The notes under the pieces were generated by a model that saw only the letters and a list, made by a program, of their open reading frames with translations, made no database searches and was not told the DNA's origin. A stretch of DNA of 64,000 bases from Candidatus Latescibacterota bacterium (GTDB lineage Bacteria > Latescibacterota > UBA2968 > GCA-2709665): the NCBI GenBank assembly GCA_965237675.1, contig OZ250150.1, forward strand, positions 928,001 to 992,000, written 5' to 3'. Below are positions 13,017 to 29,001 of the stretch, piece by piece (position 1 is the stretch's first letter; every line of letters starts with the position of its first letter). A program made the position numbers and the translations under genes.

Positions 13017-15386
<2,370 letters not shown>

Positions 15387-15547
15387 TCTCAGCGGGTGCT
15401 CACAACGGCGGCATCCGAGGAGCCGAGATAGGCGCGGACTGCAGGGCATCAGTCGACAACGCGTCATTGACGTAGAGCAATTCGTCCCGAAGCCGCACTT
15501 CGGCCTGCAGCGCATATTCGATGAAGGTAGTAAAAGAAGGGACCACG

Positions 15548-16021
15548 ATGGCAATCACGCTGGCGGCAGGCGATGTTGCCCCGGATTTCGCGCACGCCGA
15601 CCAGGACGGCAATATCCATTCGCTGGCCGAATACAGGGGCCGGACGGTCGTCCTCTACTTCTATCCGCGCGATGAGACCCCGGGTTGTACGACTCAGGCC
15701 TGCTCTTTTCGGGATCATCACGCCGAAATCCTGGCCGCGGGTGCAATCGTGCTCGGCGTTTCTAGAGACGATGCCGATTCGCACCGGGATTTCCGCGAAC
15801 GCCACCGGCTGCCGTTTCCCCTGCTGGTAGATGACGAAGCAACCGTCGCCACGCGCTATGGCGCCTGGGGTGAGAAAGTCCTCTATGGTCGTCGGTTCCA
15901 GGGAATGACGCGGTCGACTTTCATCATTGGCCCCGATGGAATACTGACCAGGGTTTGGAAACGGGCCCGGCCCGCCGAGCACGGCGCGGCGGTGCTAAAG
16001 GCGCTGCGCGAGTCCGCTTAA
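15548..16021 (+). CDS. bcp: thioredoxin-dependent thiol peroxidase (BCP/PrxQ)
   Basis: YFYPRDETPGCTTQAC, RSTFII. Confidence 0.92.
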   Translation: MAITLAAGDVAPDFAHADQDGNIHSLAEYRGRTVVLYFYPRDETPGCTTQACSFRDHHAEILAAGAIVLGVSRDDADSHRDFRERHRLPFPLLVDDEATVATRYGAWGEKVLYGRRFQGMTRSTFIIGPDGILTRVWKRARPAEHGAAVLKALRESA

Positions 16022-20052: not shown

Positions 20053-21162
20053 TCACATCCGGCTCGACGCTGGGGTGGGCCGCGCGGACCGCCAGACATG
20101 CTCGTTCTTCTCCATCCACGTCAGTACGTGTTCGCCCTGCGACGGTTCCCGTCCTGGACCGGTCAGGAGGTCCGCGGCGAGTTGGCTGGGAGCCACGCAA
20201 CGAAGGCCGTCGCGGTCGACTGCCCTATCAAAGACCACTTGGTCGAGAGGCTCTATAATCACCACGTTGGCGCCGGCTTCTGTCTCCCGAAGATCCAGTT
20301 GCTGGATAAATTGGATCGAGTCATTAACGTAGACGGCCACCAGTGCTGCCGGGGCAATCGGATCGAATCGCTGGGCAGCGAACGCGCCAGTGGCGACGTA
20401 CGGAAGCTTCGTCGCGCGGAGCTTCTTCTCGAGAGCCGATATTCCCCGTGGCTCAAGAGCCATCGTAGACGTGTTCGAGTCCGTTTGGTCGTAATCCTCA
20501 GTCCATCGCCTTATCACGCCTTTCCAATCGACGGCGGATACCCCTCCCCGCACGCGGGTCACGATGGCTTCCCGTTCGAGCAAGTCCAAAACGCGCGACA
20601 AGGTCGGCGCCGACGCGCTGGTCGACTCGGCCAACTCTCGGACACCGTACGGGGGAATTGTGTCGATGATGGCCCTCACTGCTCGTGCAGCACCCCGGCC
20701 CCGCAGCGATTGGAGCTTGTGATCCCTCGGCCAGGGATCACGATTCACCCCGTCGGCAGAAATGAACAGCCCCGGCATGGACGCTTCAATTCGGACATTG
20801 CCCGTAGTGTCGATGTATCCGACACCTCGGTCACGAATGAGAGCACGGGCGCGGGGAGAAAGGTAGGAGGACGCAACTACAGGTACCGCCCGCGGCATCG
20901 CGTGGGCTTTGATGGTGGAGAGCTGCTCGATCGCGCGGAGGACGCCGCGTGGTTCCAGATTGCGCTTGATCTCAATGACAAGGACCACCGTAGCTCCTGC
21001 CGGTGACGCGATTTCTGCCAGCAGATCCACCTGGTAACGACCTGCCAGGGCCTCCATCCGGGCGCAAAGTGACCAGCCGCACGGCATTCGTTCAGCCAGA
21101 GCGCGCTCGACGTGGCGAGCGACCTGAATGTCGGTCGGTGGCTTTTTGTCTGGGAGAGGCAT
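20053..21162 (-). CDS. AbiEi-like (type IV toxin-antitoxin) antitoxin / HTH regulator
   Basis: Nuclease-like N-terminus (VDL...IEIK, GYIDTTGN), HTH 'VRELAESTSASAPTLSRVL', 'GANV', 'QLAADLL.GPGR'; 3' end runs into a deletion junction. Confidence 0.7.
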   Translation of the reverse strand: MPLPDKKPPTDIQVARHVERALAERMPCGWSLCARMEALAGRYQVDLLAEIASPAGATVVLVIEIKRNLEPRGVLRAIEQLSTIKAHAMPRAVPVVASSYLSPRARALIRDRGVGYIDTTGNVRIEASMPGLFISADGVNRDPWPRDHKLQSLRGRGAARAVRAIIDTIPPYGVRELAESTSASAPTLSRVLDLLEREAIVTRVRGGVSAVDWKGVIRRWTEDYDQTDSNTSTMALEPRGISALEKKLRATKLPYVATGAFAAQRFDPIAPAALVAVYVNDSIQFIQQLDLRETEAGANVVIIEPLDQVVFDRAVDRDGLRCVAPSQLAADLLTGPGREPSQGEHVLTWMEKNEHVWRSARPTPASSRM

Positions 21163-21239: not shown

Positions 21240-21517
21240 CAGACTTTACCTTGCACCGTATCTCTGGAGATTTCTCTCATTGCCGTTGAAAGGATTCCGG
21301 AGCGCTTTGGGGGTCAGCCGGATTGCGAAAGTTCCCAATCCTACGAACGGCTCACAGGGCAGGGTGCGAATCCTGGAAGACACAGGATCAGTCTTTGGCT
21401 ATATTAGGCCGGTAGTCAAGGGCCTGAGCGCTCGAACGTGTTCCGGTCGGGGACTTTCCCTATACGCTGACACTTCGGATGTTTACTTGAAGGTTAAGAT
21501 CAGAAAGGAGTAGACCC

Positions 21518-22255
21518 GTGTCAAGAATCGAACCCGCATCCCGACTGTCCCGCCTGAACGGCGCCAGGATCGGACTTCTGGACCCGGGAAAGCGAACCGC
21601 GGGAGCCGTTCTCAATGCGGTCGGTGAGCGACTCGCGGCAGAGTACGACGCGAACGTGGTCGGACCCTGGAAAAAGTCATCCCCGTACCGCGTCTGCACG
21701 AAGAAGCTTCTGGAGGAAATCGTCCCGCAGTGCGACGGGCTTGTTATGGGGGTTGTGGACTGATGCGGCGCCAGTTCGTGCAGTTTGCACGATATGCTGG
21801 AGTTCGAGTTGAGAGGCATACCGACCGCCTACATCACGGCCGCGGGACGGGTACCGATGATCGAACGCGATGGTGATGGGTTCAAGCTATCGCATGCAAC
21901 AGGAAACTATCTGGTTGAGGCGTGGGAGGACTCGGGACCGCAGCCGGACAACGTGCATCGCAGGCTGATTCACTTCGGAGTACACCGCAGGATGAGGATG
22001 AGCGACGTGAAGGAGGGGGATCAGGTCCGGTACCGCGGCAGGGACCTGCGATGGGAGTATCCTCGAAAGGAGCTGGAAGCCAGATTCAGGCCTTCCGGAG
22101 CCGGTGCCTGGTCGAGCAAGCTTGACGGCGTCGCAGACTACAGGAATATCGAACTGCGCGCGCACGCTGCACCCATGGGAGGCGATAAAGTGGATGAATG
22201 CGTGGAGGAGGCCGTCCCACAGGTGGTGTCGATTCTGACCGGCGGGAGGGCATGA
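21518..22255 (+). CDS. probable UGSC-family selenoprotein variant (245 aa with TGA read as Sec)
   Basis: ORFs 21518..21763 and 21785..22255 are in frame: GVVD-U-CGASSCSLHDMLEFELRGIP; SECIS-like hairpin at 21776-21792; RBS AAGGAG. Confidence 0.8.
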
Positions 22256-24816: not shown

Positions 24817-25083
24817 CCCCCGAATTATTCATAAAAAAGGTAGTTTCCATACCTAAATCATTGTATTATATTATGGTTACACACAAGAAACCATAACACA
24901 ATGAAACAGGAGGAAACTACCGTGGAGGTTCAAGATAATCAACGCACGCTCTCTTTCGCAAGTGTTTCGGGCAAGCAGGTGGAAGCCGTCTTCGATGGCG
25001 GTGTGCTCACCAGCGATATGGGGTTGATGTTGCTTCGGGAGGTGGCGTCGAAAACCAGCATCCTGTCTCGTATCGTGGCAGCC
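24817..25083 (+). mobile_element. IS1380-family remnant (left end plus transposase N-terminus)
   Basis: CCCCCGAATTATTCAT end; 'GKQVEAVFDGGVLTSDMGLMLLREV' signature. Confidence 0.8.
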
Positions 25084-26111: not shown

Positions 26112-26226
26112 TCGAAAACCTGTATGCTTAACTTGACACGATGCATATATGAAATTAAGATGCCTGGTCGCCTGATGGCGGAAAAATTGCCTTCCTCTCC
26201 AACCCCGAGACGACTCTTGATATTTA

Positions 26227-27457
26227 GGAATCTCTGATTAAGTTGCTTATTGATTATGTGGGTATGAAGTCGTATATACAAGGATAAGGATGGCCGCGTG
26301 TTGGGATTTGAGATGGAACAACATAGAACGAGGTGCCCAGCGATGAAACAAATGAGTTTTTCGGATTTGTCGTATAGAACGAAGAAGAAGCAGACGCGCA
26401 GAGAACGATTTCTGGAAGAGATGGATGCGGTGTTGCCGTGGGAGATTCTGCTTAAACCCATTAAGAGGAAGTATCCGAAACCTGGAAACGGTCGTCGTCC
26501 GATAGGCGCGGAGGTGATGCTGAGGATCTACTTCATGCAGCAATGGTATGGGTTGAGCGATCCGGGTATGGAGGACAGTCTTTATGACGTGGAATCGATG
26601 CGCCGTTTCGCCGGTGTGGAGATCAACGGGGTGCCTGACGAGACGACGATCTGCAAGTTCCGGCACTTTCTGGAGGGGCATGGTCTGACCGAAGCATTGT
26701 TTAAGCAGGCGAAGCGGTATCTGTCGGGGCGGGGCATGATCGTCAGTGAAGGCACGATTGTGGACGCCACGATCATTCATGCGCCATCGTCGACGAAGAA
26801 CCGGGAACGCAAGCGGGACCCCGAGATGAAAAGCACGAAGAAGGGCAACACCTGGTATTTCGGCATGAAGGCCCACGTCGGCGCCGATGTGAAAGGGCGG
26901 GTGCACAGTGTGGTCACCACCGCCGCTTCGGTGCATGACTCCCAGGTGATGGACGCGTGCCTGCATGGAAAGGAGCGGACGATCTATGGCGACAAGGCCT
27001 ATGCGGACCAGACGCGAAAGGAACAGGCCGAATCCAATGACATCGAATGGCGTGTGCTTCGCAAGGCCCGCCGTGGCAAGCGTCTCAACTGCGCGGACCT
27101 GTCGTTCAACAAGAAGAGCAATCGCACACGCGCACGGGTCGAACATCCCTTTGGCGTCATCAAGCACCTGTGGGGCTATCGCAAGGTCAGATACCGGGGC
27201 CTTGCCAAGAACACGGCCCACCTCTTCACTCTGTTCGCCCTGGCCAATTTCTATCTCGTCCGACGGGAACTGGCCACCGCTTAGGGACAAATCCGTCCGG
27301 ATCGGGCGGACGGGGGCACAAACCCCGGGACGGGGCGCATCCCACCCTCGAATAGCCCCCACAACCATCCAAAACCACGTCCTTTTCAACATAAACGTCC
27401 TCTCAACACGATCATATCACACCACGACTTCGTATAACCGGGTTGATCAGACCTTCC
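26227..27457 (+). mobile_element. IS5-family element (transposase 26343..27284)
   Basis: MKQMSF, VPDETTI, IVDATII, FGMKAHVG, YGDKAY, RARVEHPF, KVRYRGLAKN; ends GGAATCTCTGATTAA and TTGATCAGACCTTCC; no target duplication. Confidence 0.93.
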
Positions 27458-27743
27458 TTCGGAGTACACCGCAGGATGAGGATGAGCGACGTGAAGGAGG
27501 GGGATCAGGTCCGGTACCGCGGCAGGGACCTGCGATGGGAGTATCCACGAAAGGAGCTGGAAGCCAGGTTCAGGCCTTCCGGAGCCGGCGCCTGGTCGAG
27601 CACCCTTGACGGTGTCGCAGGCTACAGGAATATCGAACTGCGCGCGCACGCTGCACCCATGGAAGGCGATAAAGCGGATGAATGCGTGGAGGAGGCCGTC
27701 CCGCAGGTGGTGTCGATTCTGACGCGAGGGAGGGCGTGAGTTT
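27457..27743 (+). pseudogene. second, 5'-truncated copy of the UGSC-like gene 3' end
   Basis: About 95% identical to 21973..22259 (about 14 substitutions by manual count); begins at the IS5 right end. Confidence 0.92.
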
Positions 27744-27786
27744 ACGGTACGCGCTCAGATGCACCGAGGGTACCAAGGAGGCAATT

Positions 27787-29001
27787 ATGTTTTTCAGATC
27801 AGTTGCCATATTGGCGGTCCTGGTTCTCACAGCCCAGGCTTCCGGTTGTCCCGGTGACTTCGACAACAACAGGCGGGTTGACTTCGCTGATTTTATCGCC
27901 CTGGCCGTTGCATTTGGGGCTCAGCAGGGTGACGCAGGTTATAATGCCGCAGTGGATCTGGACACTGATGGCTCAATTGATATGGCCGACTTTCTGGCCT
28001 TCGCGAAGTTGTTTGGTAATCCTTGTTTTGCCGAACTCACCCGTTTGACGAATAGCGAGACCATCGAATTACATCCCACGTGGTCACCGCCAGACGGCCG
28101 CAAGATTGCTTATCTCTCTGGTTTTGAAGATCCGGAATTGTGGGTGATGAATGCGGATGGTGGTGATTCAATAAGATTAGCCACTTCTATTGCAGTGGAT
28201 ACCGAATTATACACGACGCTAGCCTGGTCACCGGACGGTGAGCACATCGCTTTTTCCTCTGCTCGGGATGGGAATTCAGAGATTTATAAGGTAGGTGCAA
28301 ATGGTGAAGGTCTCACTCGTCTTACAAATAATGACGCAGAAGATATATACCCTTCTTGGTCACCTGACGGCACCAAGATCACCTTTTCTTCCAACCAGGA
28401 CGGGAACTTTGAAATTTATGTGGCGGGTCCGGAAGGCGCAGATCTCACACGGCTAACGAATAGTACTGTCCACGATTGGCTTCCGGTCTGGTCACCCGAC
28501 AGTAAGAAGATTGCCTTTATGTCTATAGGTGTTGATTCCAATGATAATAGGTTCGCTGTAATTTCTGTGGTGGATGTTGAGTCGGCAACGGTTACGCAAC
28601 TCACCGCAGATACCGAAGGTAGTATTTTGCCTACGTGGTCGCCTGACGGAACAAGAATTACCTTCTGGTCAAGGCGCGACAATGCCCGCACAAACTATGG
28701 CGATATGTATGTGATGAATGCTGACGGTAGCGAGGTTACTCGCCTGACCTTTCAGGATATCTGGGATGATTTGTGGGTAGGTGCTGCATGGTCACCGGAC
28801 GGCACCAGAGTCGTTTACTCAGCTGAGGGAGACGGCCCACTTTTTGTAATGAACGCTGACGGAGCGAATATCAAACGCTTAACGAATAGCGAGACTGCGG
28901 AGTATTATCCGGCCTGGTCGCCTGATGGCAAGAAAATCGCCTTTCTCTCCAACCCCGAGAGGACTTTTGATATTTATGTTGTAGAGGTTCCGTCAGAGTA
29001 A
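27787..29001 (+). CDS. secreted TolB-like (PD40 repeat) protein with N-terminal dockerin-like EF-hand pair
   Basis: Signal peptide; DFDNNRRVDFADF and DLDTDGSIDMADF; seven 'P.WSPDG..IAF'-type repeats. Confidence 0.9.
   Translation: MFFRSVAILAVLVLTAQASGCPGDFDNNRRVDFADFIALAVAFGAQQGDAGYNAAVDLDTDGSIDMADFLAFAKLFGNPCFAELTRLTNSETIELHPTWSPPDGRKIAYLSGFEDPELWVMNADGGDSIRLATSIAVDTELYTTLAWSPDGEHIAFSSARDGNSEIYKVGANGEGLTRLTNNDAEDIYPSWSPDGTKITFSSNQDGNFEIYVAGPEGADLTRLTNSTVHDWLPVWSPDSKKIAFMSIGVDSNDNRFAVISVVDVESATVTQLTADTEGSILPTWSPDGTRITFWSRRDNARTNYGDMYVMNADGSEVTRLTFQDIWDDLWVGAAWSPDGTRVVYSAEGDGPLFVMNADGANIKRLTNSETAEYYPAWSPDGKKIAFLSNPERTFDIYVVEVPSE

What the first reader, a model, noticed from the sequence alone, without database searches (positions are those of the whole stretch)
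21518..22255. Hidden selenoprotein: UGSC-family variant with a vicinal U-C motif and a large insertion
Seen: in-frame TGA at 21761-63 giving GVVD-U-CGASSCSLHD, with hairpin TCGTGCA-GTT-TGCACGA whose G-led loop starts 19 nt after the TGA (further CCAG/CTGG pairing below). Known: this fits bacterial SECIS geometry, and UGSC-family proteins read roughly D-U-GSC-TSCS.HD...E.RGIP. Inference: here UGSC is replaced by UCGA, placing Cys next to Sec instead of at +3. Roughly 80 extra residues appear inserted after AYITAAG. This would be a different redox centre on an annotation-invisible gene.
Basis: partly seen in the sequence, partly recalled or inferred. Interest (0 to 1): 0.7.

Follow-up and report, generated by a model that had tools for sequence, protein, structure and literature searches.

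The report
Selenoprotein with inserted Obg tail domain
A gene that annotation software cuts in two at a UGA codon is one gene for a predicted selenium-containing protein, which has lost its family's usual partner cysteine and carries in its middle the tail domain of the ribosome-associated GTPase Obg, likely as a cap that picks its still-unknown target.

Summary
The TGA at 21761-63 is in frame and kept in 24 of 24 homologous genes. Its hairpin meets all four bacterial SECIS rules, selA/B/C/D are present, and both halves are under purifying selection. Its profile retrieves Obg tails from 1.84 billion proteins and aligns to them at probability 98.9%; Thermus Obg ranks first, weakly, in two fold searches. 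No Obg with this domain was found in 168 genomes of the phylum. The insert marks a wider subfamily that includes 15 uninterrupted Cys-form proteins. There the Sec/Cys column is invariant, Cys+3 is lost in 14 of 15, and the vicinal Cys occurs in only 1 of 15, the sister of this clade. So U-C is real and conserved but clade-specific; the defining novelty is the OCT insert with loss of UxxC. The usual neighbouring partner gene was not found in 18 of 22 carrier genomes. Likely function: a stand-alone one-selenol redox enzyme or sensor; untested. The scan reported this architecture before in other genomes (7 notes); my paper searches found no description of it.

The parts
21377..21405 (+). Promoter-like site (AAGACA-17 nt-TATATT)
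   Evidence: Consensus scan, 1 found against 0.7 expected by chance; the same hexamers recur in 5 of 5 aligned close relatives but not in the 9 more distant loci. Weak.
21506..21510 (+). Ribosome-binding site AGGAG, 7 nt before the GTG start
   Evidence: Sequence; a purine-rich AGGA/GGAG run precedes the start in the homologs
21518..22255 (+). Whole gene, 245 aa when TGA82 is read as Sec
   Evidence: full-length homologs with one TGA; dN/dS 0.03-0.30 in four segments
21518..21847 (+). UGSC-family core, N-terminal part (four predicted parallel strands with helices)
   Evidence: PF24696 aa 5-108, 90.7 bits, cut-off 25; hhalign to canonical UGSC 99.9% over 107 columns; model
21761..21763 (+). TGA predicted to encode selenocysteine 82
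   Evidence: 24 of 24 genes keep TGA; Cys at this column in 15 of 15 uninterrupted homologs
21764..21781 (+). C83-G-A-S-S-C88: vicinal Cys (+1), Ala in place of the canonical Cys (+3), retained Cys (+6)
   Evidence: C83 in 24 of 24 genes, 23 TGC and 1 TGT; C88 TGC in 24 of 24
21776..21792 (+). SECIS upper stem-loop TCGTGCA-GTT-TGCACGA
   Evidence: lowest synonymous diversity among codons 2-180; 6-pair core shared with canonical UGSC genes
21848..22060 (+). Inserted Obg C-terminal (OCT/DUF1967)-like domain, aa 111-181
22061..22255 (+). Linker and C-terminal part of the UGSC core (last strand and helix)
   Evidence: Weak PF24696 match to profile positions 128-171 in the duplicate and in homologs; aa 191-219 poorly modelled
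27457..27746 (+). Truncated second copy of the 3' third of the gene (94.8% DNA identity), starting at the right end of an insertion sequence; no Sec codon or SECIS
   Evidence: contigs of DNA runs cover both copies

Best explanation
This is one gene for a predicted 245-residue selenoprotein whose core comes from the UGSC family and carries an inserted Obg C-terminal domain, and it likely works as a stand-alone redox enzyme or sensor in which Sec82 is the single reactive group and the inserted domain likely caps the site and selects the target. Shown: one conserved reading frame through the TGA, SECIS geometry, Sec machinery, identity of the insert, loss of UxxC. Inferred step 1: SelB binds the GUU-loop hairpin and Sec is inserted at codon 82. 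Inferred step 2: Sec82 sits after strand 3, ahead of a helix, the same place as the Sec of GrdB/PrdB, and attacks an oxidant or a disulfide. Inferred step 3: the oxidised selenium is resolved or protected by Cys83 or Cys88, Cys83 being this clade's replacement for the lost Cys+3. Inferred step 4: the OCT domain leaves the sheet at the end of strand 4, beside the Sec loop, and supplies the recognition surface that canonical members get from the partner encoded next to them.
For: Gene: TGA in 24 of 24 genes of 60-93% protein identity, never TAA or TAG; dN/dS 0.13, 0.026, 0.17 and 0.30 for N-part, motif core, insert and C-part over 210 pairs. Sec: selA, selB and tRNA-Sec clustered, selD with its own TGA; selA in 20 of 21 other carriers; all four bSECIS rules of PMC13188914 met; the six lowest of 171 synonymous-diversity windows start at codons 82-87. 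Single reactive residue: Cys at column 82 in 15 of 15 Cys forms, but Cys+1 in 1, Cys+3 in 1 and Cys+6 in 10. GrdB/PrdB link: canonical UGSC aligns to their Sec segment at 91.9%, score 47 against at most 20 in 30 column shuffles. Insert: Obg tails retrieved at E 1.7e-5 to 1.5e-4 among 1.84 billion proteins; hhalign 98.9% over 70 columns; 1UDX residues 351-416 rank 1. Partner: found in 20 of 20 genomes with a canonical gene and 4 of 22 with the variant, 0 of 15 in the genus. A canonical gene sits in a trxB-trxA operon in Arthrobacter.
Against: No activity, substrate or Sec incorporation has been measured. The motif loop (81-88) and aa 191-219 have pLDDT < 50, so neither the Sec-Cys geometry nor the cap position is shown. 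The direct comparison of the variant with GrdB/PrdB is weak (6.7%, score 26), both profiles are shallow, and part of the canonical score comes from the Cys-rich motif itself. The SECIS shows no compensatory change, 0 of 12 pairs, and its codons also encode the active-site motif. Five of 15 Cys forms have no second Cys in the motif and 12 of 15 have His at +2, which fits metal binding as well. The neighbourhood is variable and names no pathway. The window's own insert is under the Pfam cut-off (14.2 against 27 bits) and the fold match is weak (E 0.88; Z 3.0, rmsd 2.2, 53 aligned). Genomes compared are kin, so the partner counts are not independent events.
Confidence: 0.45

Rival explanations
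1. The protein is a metal-binding sensor or chaperone: Sec82, Cys83 and Cys88 (Cys and His+2 in the larger Cys-form branch) would ligate a soft metal or an iron-sulfur cluster, and the OCT domain would relay the signal.
For: In Table 1 of PMC13188914 the only UC motif is in a (2Fe-2S)-binding CopZ-family protein, and most of the 7 CU motifs are in proteins named as metal-related (SaoL, HgcA, MbdU, a 2Fe-2S protein). His+2 in 12 of 15 Cys forms. One sister protein reads CCACSACC.
Against: The ligand set is not conserved across the subfamily: only column 82 is invariant. No metal-resistance or cluster-assembly genes recur beside it in the loci examined. No fold match stood above the tied background.
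Confidence: 0.25
2. The protein is the selenium subunit of a GrdB/PrdB-like reductase that would cleave a C-N or similar bond of a small substrate by selenolate attack.
For: Canonical UGSC aligns with the GrdB/PrdB Sec segment, and a GrdB of this phylum itself reads U-G-S-C-N-R-C.
Against: The variant lacks UxxCxxC. PF07355 was not found in the own genome (where no control rang either) and in only 4 of 168 genomes of the phylum. The gene stands alone, with no reductase operon.
Confidence: 0.13
3. The OCT insert keeps its Obg-related role and would dock the selenoprotein on the host's tail-less Obg or on the ribosome, coupling redox state to ribosome assembly or the stress response.
For: The host Obg ends after the G domain (330 aa), as do 30 of 30 Obg proteins read from the order (324-342 aa). 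No DUF1967 over the cut-off occurs in 168 genomes of the phylum; the only two matches are the inserts. PMC9545696 (passages) reports that in the T. thermophilus crystal the nucleotide-binding site contacts the C-terminal domain of a neighbouring molecule. Basic and aromatic OCT residues (G154, R157, R160, G167, D168, W179) are the best conserved in the subfamily.
Against: 146 of 168 genomes of the phylum manage without the full gene, so it is not a needed complement of short Obg. The gene was not found near obg or ribosomal genes in the loci read.
Confidence: 0.12
4. The TGA is a true stop: two small genes or a pseudogene, the second perhaps started at the ATG in the TGATG overlap.
For: TGA-TGC creates an overlapping ATG. 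Two decayed copies exist in this genome and one metagenome homolog has a second TGA at codon 9. No protein-level evidence was obtained.
Against: The overlap frame varies from 12 to 144 aa among the 24 genes. The stop is always TGA. Fifteen homologs are fused with Cys at this column. The SECIS core is shared with canonical UGSC genes. Contigs of three DNA runs match the TGA without a difference.
Confidence: 0.04

Closest known systems
UGSC-containing (seleno)protein family, Pfam PF24696 / NCBIfam NF041046 (PMC2398784, PMC13188914)
   Same: Homologous core (hhalign 99.9%), Sec after Asp at the same column, Cys+6 kept, same SECIS core CGTGCA-GTN-TGCACG at the same 19-nt spacing.
   Different: UxxC lost; Cys at +1; about 85 extra residues holding an OCT domain where canonical members have a helix after strand 4; scores 64 against a cut-off of 125 on NF041046; the large partner gene found beside canonical members is mostly missing.
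Obg C-terminal domain (OCT, Pfam PF09269 DUF1967; PDB 1UDX residues 351-416; the label OCT is recalled)
   Same: Full-length profile match over 70 columns, shared G..R.LR..G...GD.V.....W pattern, hairpin-helices-hairpin layout, rank 1 in both fold searches.
   Different: Sits inside a selenoprotein core instead of at the end of a GTPase; adds conserved His156 and Tyr-Pro after the Trp; under the Pfam cut-off in this protein; occurs in a phylum where no Obg with this domain was found.
Glycine reductase GrdB / D-proline reductase PrdB (Pfam PF07355)
   Same: Strand-Sec-helix-G(I/V)P-strand segment resembles that of canonical UGSC (91.9%).
   Different: No UxxCxxC, no reductase operon, direct similarity of the variant only 6.7%.
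Bacterial selenoproteins with adjacent Sec and Cys (GxUC CopZ-family 2Fe-2S protein; CU in SaoL, SaoC, HgcA, MbdU, KCU-star)
   Same: Sec and Cys next to each other (Table 1 of PMC13188914).
   Different: No sequence relation was found in the family scans; here the pair is internal, in a UGSC core, and restricted to one clade.

Membership tests
Bacterial selenoprotein gene (bSECIS model as given in PMC13188914) | In-frame TGA aligned to Cys in homologs | tested here: met
   24 of 24 genes TGA; 15 of 15 uninterrupted homologs Cys (their DNA could not be read)
Bacterial selenoprotein gene (bSECIS model as given in PMC13188914) | Loop 3-9 nt, stem 4-16 bp, G in first two loop positions, spacing 16-37 nt, energy at most -7.5 kcal/mol | tested here: met
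   Loop GUU, 7 bp, 19 nt, -17 kcal/mol; bSECISearch itself was not run
Bacterial selenoprotein gene (bSECIS model as given in PMC13188914) | selA, selB, selC, selD in the genome | tested here: met
   All over cut-off, tRNA-Sec found
Bacterial selenoprotein gene (bSECIS model as given in PMC13188914) | Selenium in the product | not testable with these tools
   Needs labelling or mass spectrometry
UGSC superfamily (PF24696) | Score over the Pfam gathering cut-off | tested here: met
   90.7 bits against 25, aa 5-108
UGSC family proper (NF041046 equivalog) | Score over the curated cut-off | tested here: not met
   64 bits against 125
UGSC family proper (NF041046 equivalog) | UGSC (UxxC) motif | tested here: not met
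   UCGA or UCGS in 24 of 24 genes
UGSC family proper (NF041046 equivalog) | Large partner gene encoded next to it (seen here beside canonical members; not a curated criterion) | tested here: not met
   Not found with this query in the own genome or 14 congeners; present elsewhere in 4 of 22 carriers
OCT / DUF1967 (PF09269) | Score over the Pfam cut-off for this protein | tested here: not met
   14.2 bits against 27; subfamily members P0040, P0046 and P0082 pass at 29.2-29.5
OCT / DUF1967 (PF09269) | Full-length homology to Obg tails | tested here: met
   3 Obg-type tails among 21 hits of the insert profile; hhalign 98.9%, E 2e-17 (the three tails were picked by the same profile)
OCT / DUF1967 (PF09269) | Same fold as 1UDX C-terminal domain | tested here: inconclusive
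   Rank 1 of 350,542 and of 48,161 chains, but E 0.88 and Z 3.0, rmsd 2.2, 53 aligned, tied with RsmE at Z 2.8
Obg GTPase | Obg fold and G domain | tested here: not met
   No such match in the protein; the genome's obg lies elsewhere
GrdB/PrdB (PF07355) | UxxCxxC or UxxC motif | tested here: not met
   Motif is UCGASSC
GrdB/PrdB (PF07355) | Profile similarity | tested here: inconclusive
   6.7% direct, 91.9% through canonical UGSC
Thioredoxin fold (proposed for UGSC in PMC2398784) | Structural match to thioredoxin-fold chains | tested here: inconclusive
   The listed rows are three-layer alpha/beta folds tied at Z 7.8-9.6; model pLDDT 69

The most novel reading that the evidence does not exclude
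A selenoprotein subfamily has captured the tail domain of Obg and uses it to dock on the ribosome or on a tail-less Obg, so that a Sec82-Cys83 switch couples cellular redox state to ribosome assembly or the stringent response; the protein would also be a natural probe for what the OCT domain binds.
Probability: 0.12. Interest if true: 0.85.

Novelty: new variant of a known kind. Interest (0 to 1): 0.5.

Why it matters
UGSC proteins are among the most abundant selenoproteins in ocean metagenomes (255 sequences in PMC2398784) and have no known function; the function of the folded Obg tail is also poorly defined in the passages I read. This protein joins the two in a small, apparently partner-free form, with natural Cys variants that can be expressed without Sec machinery. 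That makes both questions testable: what a UGSC core does, and what OCT binds. The subfamily also shows that the family's name-giving UxxC is dispensable. It is an annotation blind spot as well: all 30 hits of the first protein search were pieces that start after the TGA.

Tried and rejected
Complex prediction of the insert with the host Obg (alignments of 12 and 18 rows) gave no answer, score 0.00 against a mark of 0.32; this is neither support nor evidence against binding. Sequence searches of the PDB with the insert and the full profile found nothing under E 0.1. Fold searches of the full model gave only tied alpha/beta folds; no thioredoxin-fold or GrdB/PrdB chain was among the rows shown, which does not exclude them. 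Rfam found nothing at E up to 1. The ESM Atlas returned only UGSC clusters by structure for a Cys-form homolog; the insert alone was not searched there. Plasmids held five canonical-type matches, none covering the insert. Viral contigs were not scanned. The TGATG overlap ORF was rejected as unconserved. The lower SECIS helix was rejected as unconserved. Neighbourhood: a PhyH gene cluster recurs in 15 and a glyoxalase cluster in 17 of 28 loci, but many of those loci are congeners or duplicates and the genome has 33 PhyH-like loci, so no link is claimed; catalase-peroxidase lies within 7 kb in the window, L059 and L061 only. RNA: one run held 0.04 of the words; two contigs of relatives in it span the TGA unchanged, but DNA can be in such a library and no silent control was laid, so transcription is not shown. 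Paper searches with no hit: UGSC + Obg, DUF1967, Obg + C-terminal domain + OCT domain, UGA context terms. Latescibacter + selenoprotein listed two papers that I did not open.

Full report
Observation. Window 21518-22255 is a GTG-started frame with one internal TGA at 21761-21763, reading GVVD*CGASSCSLHD. The hairpin TCGTGCA-GTT-TGCACGA begins its loop 19 nt after the TGA. It meets the four rules of the bacterial SECIS model as printed in PMC13188914 section 5. A stem of 7 or more pairs with this geometry follows 39 of 7,959 genomic TGAs that have 60 open codons on each side. Folding z-scores depend on the window: -2.4 and -3.6 for 40 and 35 nt, -1.4 and -0.95 for 60 and 67 nt.

The TGA is best read as Sec. 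The genome has selA, selB and tRNA-Sec in one cluster and a selD with its own TGA. In 168 genomes of the phylum, 22 carry this variant, 20 carry a canonical UGSC gene, one has a 45-residue fragment and 125 have no match; 13 of 14 congeners have it. Record titles of the closest loci read Candidatus Latescibacterota or Gemmatimonadota. In 24 distinct genes of 60-93% identity the codon is TGA every time (repeated fetches, one of two near-identical copies in one genome and partial contigs were left out). dN/dS over 210 pairs of the 21 colinear genes is 0.13, 0.026, 0.17 and 0.30 for the N-part, motif core, insert and C-part; the six lowest of 171 synonymous-diversity windows start at codons 82-87. 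The 6-pair SECIS core is the same in variant and canonical genes, with one U-A to U-G change and no compensatory change. selA was found in 20 of 21 other carriers, the miss being an 80% complete genome, and also in 7 of 7 non-carriers, so this is a necessary condition met and no more. Contigs of three DNA runs match the codon; they may include the source sample.

The insertion is an Obg C-terminal domain. DUF1967 was the best Pfam match in 7 of 7 inserts or C-halves, all under the cut-off. A profile of 12 inserts run against 1.84 billion proteins gave 21 hits; three are Obg-type tails, one from a full-length protein whose cluster is named GTPase ObgE of Chloroflexota. Insert and Obg-tail profiles align over 70 columns at 98.9%. 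Three distant members pass the Pfam cut-off. The insert alone folds at pLDDT 83, and T. thermophilus Obg residues 351-416 rank first in both fold searches, with weak scores (E 0.88; Z 3.0, rmsd 2.2, 53 aligned). The host Obg is 330 aa and 30 of 30 Obg proteins read from the order are 324-342 aa. No DUF1967 over the cut-off was found in 168 genomes of the phylum, while 6 of 14 control genomes had one. The domain therefore did not come from the present obg of this lineage (inference).

The vicinal cysteine is real but local. The same searches uncovered a wider subfamily with the insert at the same place, including 15 uninterrupted proteins (two of these searches scored only about 8,000 candidates, so the set is incomplete). 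All 15 have Cys at the Sec column; 1 has Cys+1, 1 has Cys+3, 10 have Cys+6 and 12 have His+2, mostly as CGHGSSC or CGHGSSV. The one with Cys+1 (P0035, CCACSAC) is sister to the U-C clade at 96/95 support, so Cys+1 probably arose before Cys+3 was lost in this branch (inference from one sequence; midpoint root). Within the clade C83 is kept in 24 of 24 genes, with one synonymous change, and lies outside the conserved stem, which points to selection on the residue. In Table 1 of PMC13188914 one family has a UC motif and seven have CU, so adjacency is uncommon but has precedent.

Core and context. PF24696 matches aa 5-108 at 90.7 bits; NF041046 is missed, 64 against 125. The model (pLDDT 69) is a parallel-sheet alpha/beta core with Sec after strand 3 and the insert after strand 4; the motif loop and aa 191-219 are unresolved. 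Fold matches are tied generic folds such as lumazine synthase, MID and periplasmic-binding domains. That strands 3 and 4 are neighbours in such folds is recalled, and it is the basis for placing the insert beside the Sec. Canonical UGSC aligns with the Sec segment of GrdB/PrdB at 91.9%; the variant directly at only 6.7%. A 471-aa protein encoded beside canonical UGSC has a match in 20 of 20 genomes with a canonical gene and in 4 of 22 with the variant. It may be the Unknown_1 of PMC2398784; that supplement figure was not seen. In annotated plasmids canonical UGSC also adjoins a roughly 340-aa hypothetical gene in 3 of 3 annotated records, once behind trxB-trxA. The variant stands alone, with its own ribosome-binding site, in changing neighbourhoods.

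Mechanism. The best-supported reading is a stand-alone redox enzyme or sensor with one reactive selenol, resolved or protected by Cys83 or Cys88, and an OCT cap that selects the target (0.45). Rivals: metal or cluster binding (0.25), GrdB/PrdB-like substrate cleavage (0.13), docking on Obg or the ribosome (0.12), not a selenoprotein (0.04). I put the gene-level claim at about 0.95 and the identity of the insert at about 0.9; everything about chemistry and partners is inferred.

Literature seen. PMC13188914: section 5 whole, section 7 parts 1-2 of 3 with all of Table 1, and passages; it lists UGSC with motif UGSC only. PMC2398784, PMC9545696, PMC6778437, PMC10123104: passages only. Other papers: search listings only. 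No supplements were opened. Searches for UGSC + Obg and for DUF1967 returned nothing; most subscription papers are outside the library. Seven earlier notes of this scan describe the same architecture in other genomes. I identified the insert and tested the partner before reading them; the cap or lid wording follows two of them.

Verdict. A real and conserved new variant of a known selenoprotein kind. Interest 0.5: unexpected to a selenoprotein or Obg specialist and testable, but with no function yet.

Noticed in passing
window 26229-27457 and 27457-27746: A single-copy insertion sequence with a DDE transposase (IS5-like ends, name recalled) abuts a 290-bp, 94.8%-identical copy of the gene's 3' end; 26162-26226 also repeats the end of the downstream beta-propeller gene (28912-28976). 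This looks like an old tandem duplication trimmed by the element.
   Followed up: partly
G000:C1:2294868-2295104: Remnant of a second paralog: about 13 N-terminal codons joined to the last 65, with Sec, SECIS and OCT deleted; the locus is syntenic with an intact 65%-identical paralog in G012 (L025).
   Followed up: yes
L101 and L102 (G144, G149); L103 and L104: Glycine-reductase-type operons whose GrdB reads through a TGA as U-G-S-C-N-R-C, and PrdB-like genes with U-P-N-C, in 4 of 168 genomes of the phylum.
   Followed up: partly
L134:8570-9793 and G020, G102, G103 and others: A second, roughly 449-aa family related to the canonical UGSC partner occurs in about 19 genomes of the phylum, in G107 some 3 kb from the variant gene with two opposite-strand genes between.
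   Followed up: no
L066:471-1214: A metagenome homolog has a second TGA at codon 9, a possible pseudogene or assembly error.
   Followed up: no
window 13140-16021: Catalase-peroxidase and an AhpC/TSA peroxiredoxin gene lie 5-8 kb upstream; catalase-peroxidase is also close to the gene in L059 and L061.
   Followed up: partly
window 24820-25010: A roughly 180-bp stretch with very high summed contig depth in all four runs laid, matching in reverse orientation just before the beta-propeller gene in congeners; possibly a small repeated element.
   Followed up: no
window 20053-21162 (-): A 369-aa protein with a weak NucS-like nuclease match and a helix-turn-helix, divergent from the gene and present in 5 of 28 loci.
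   Followed up: no
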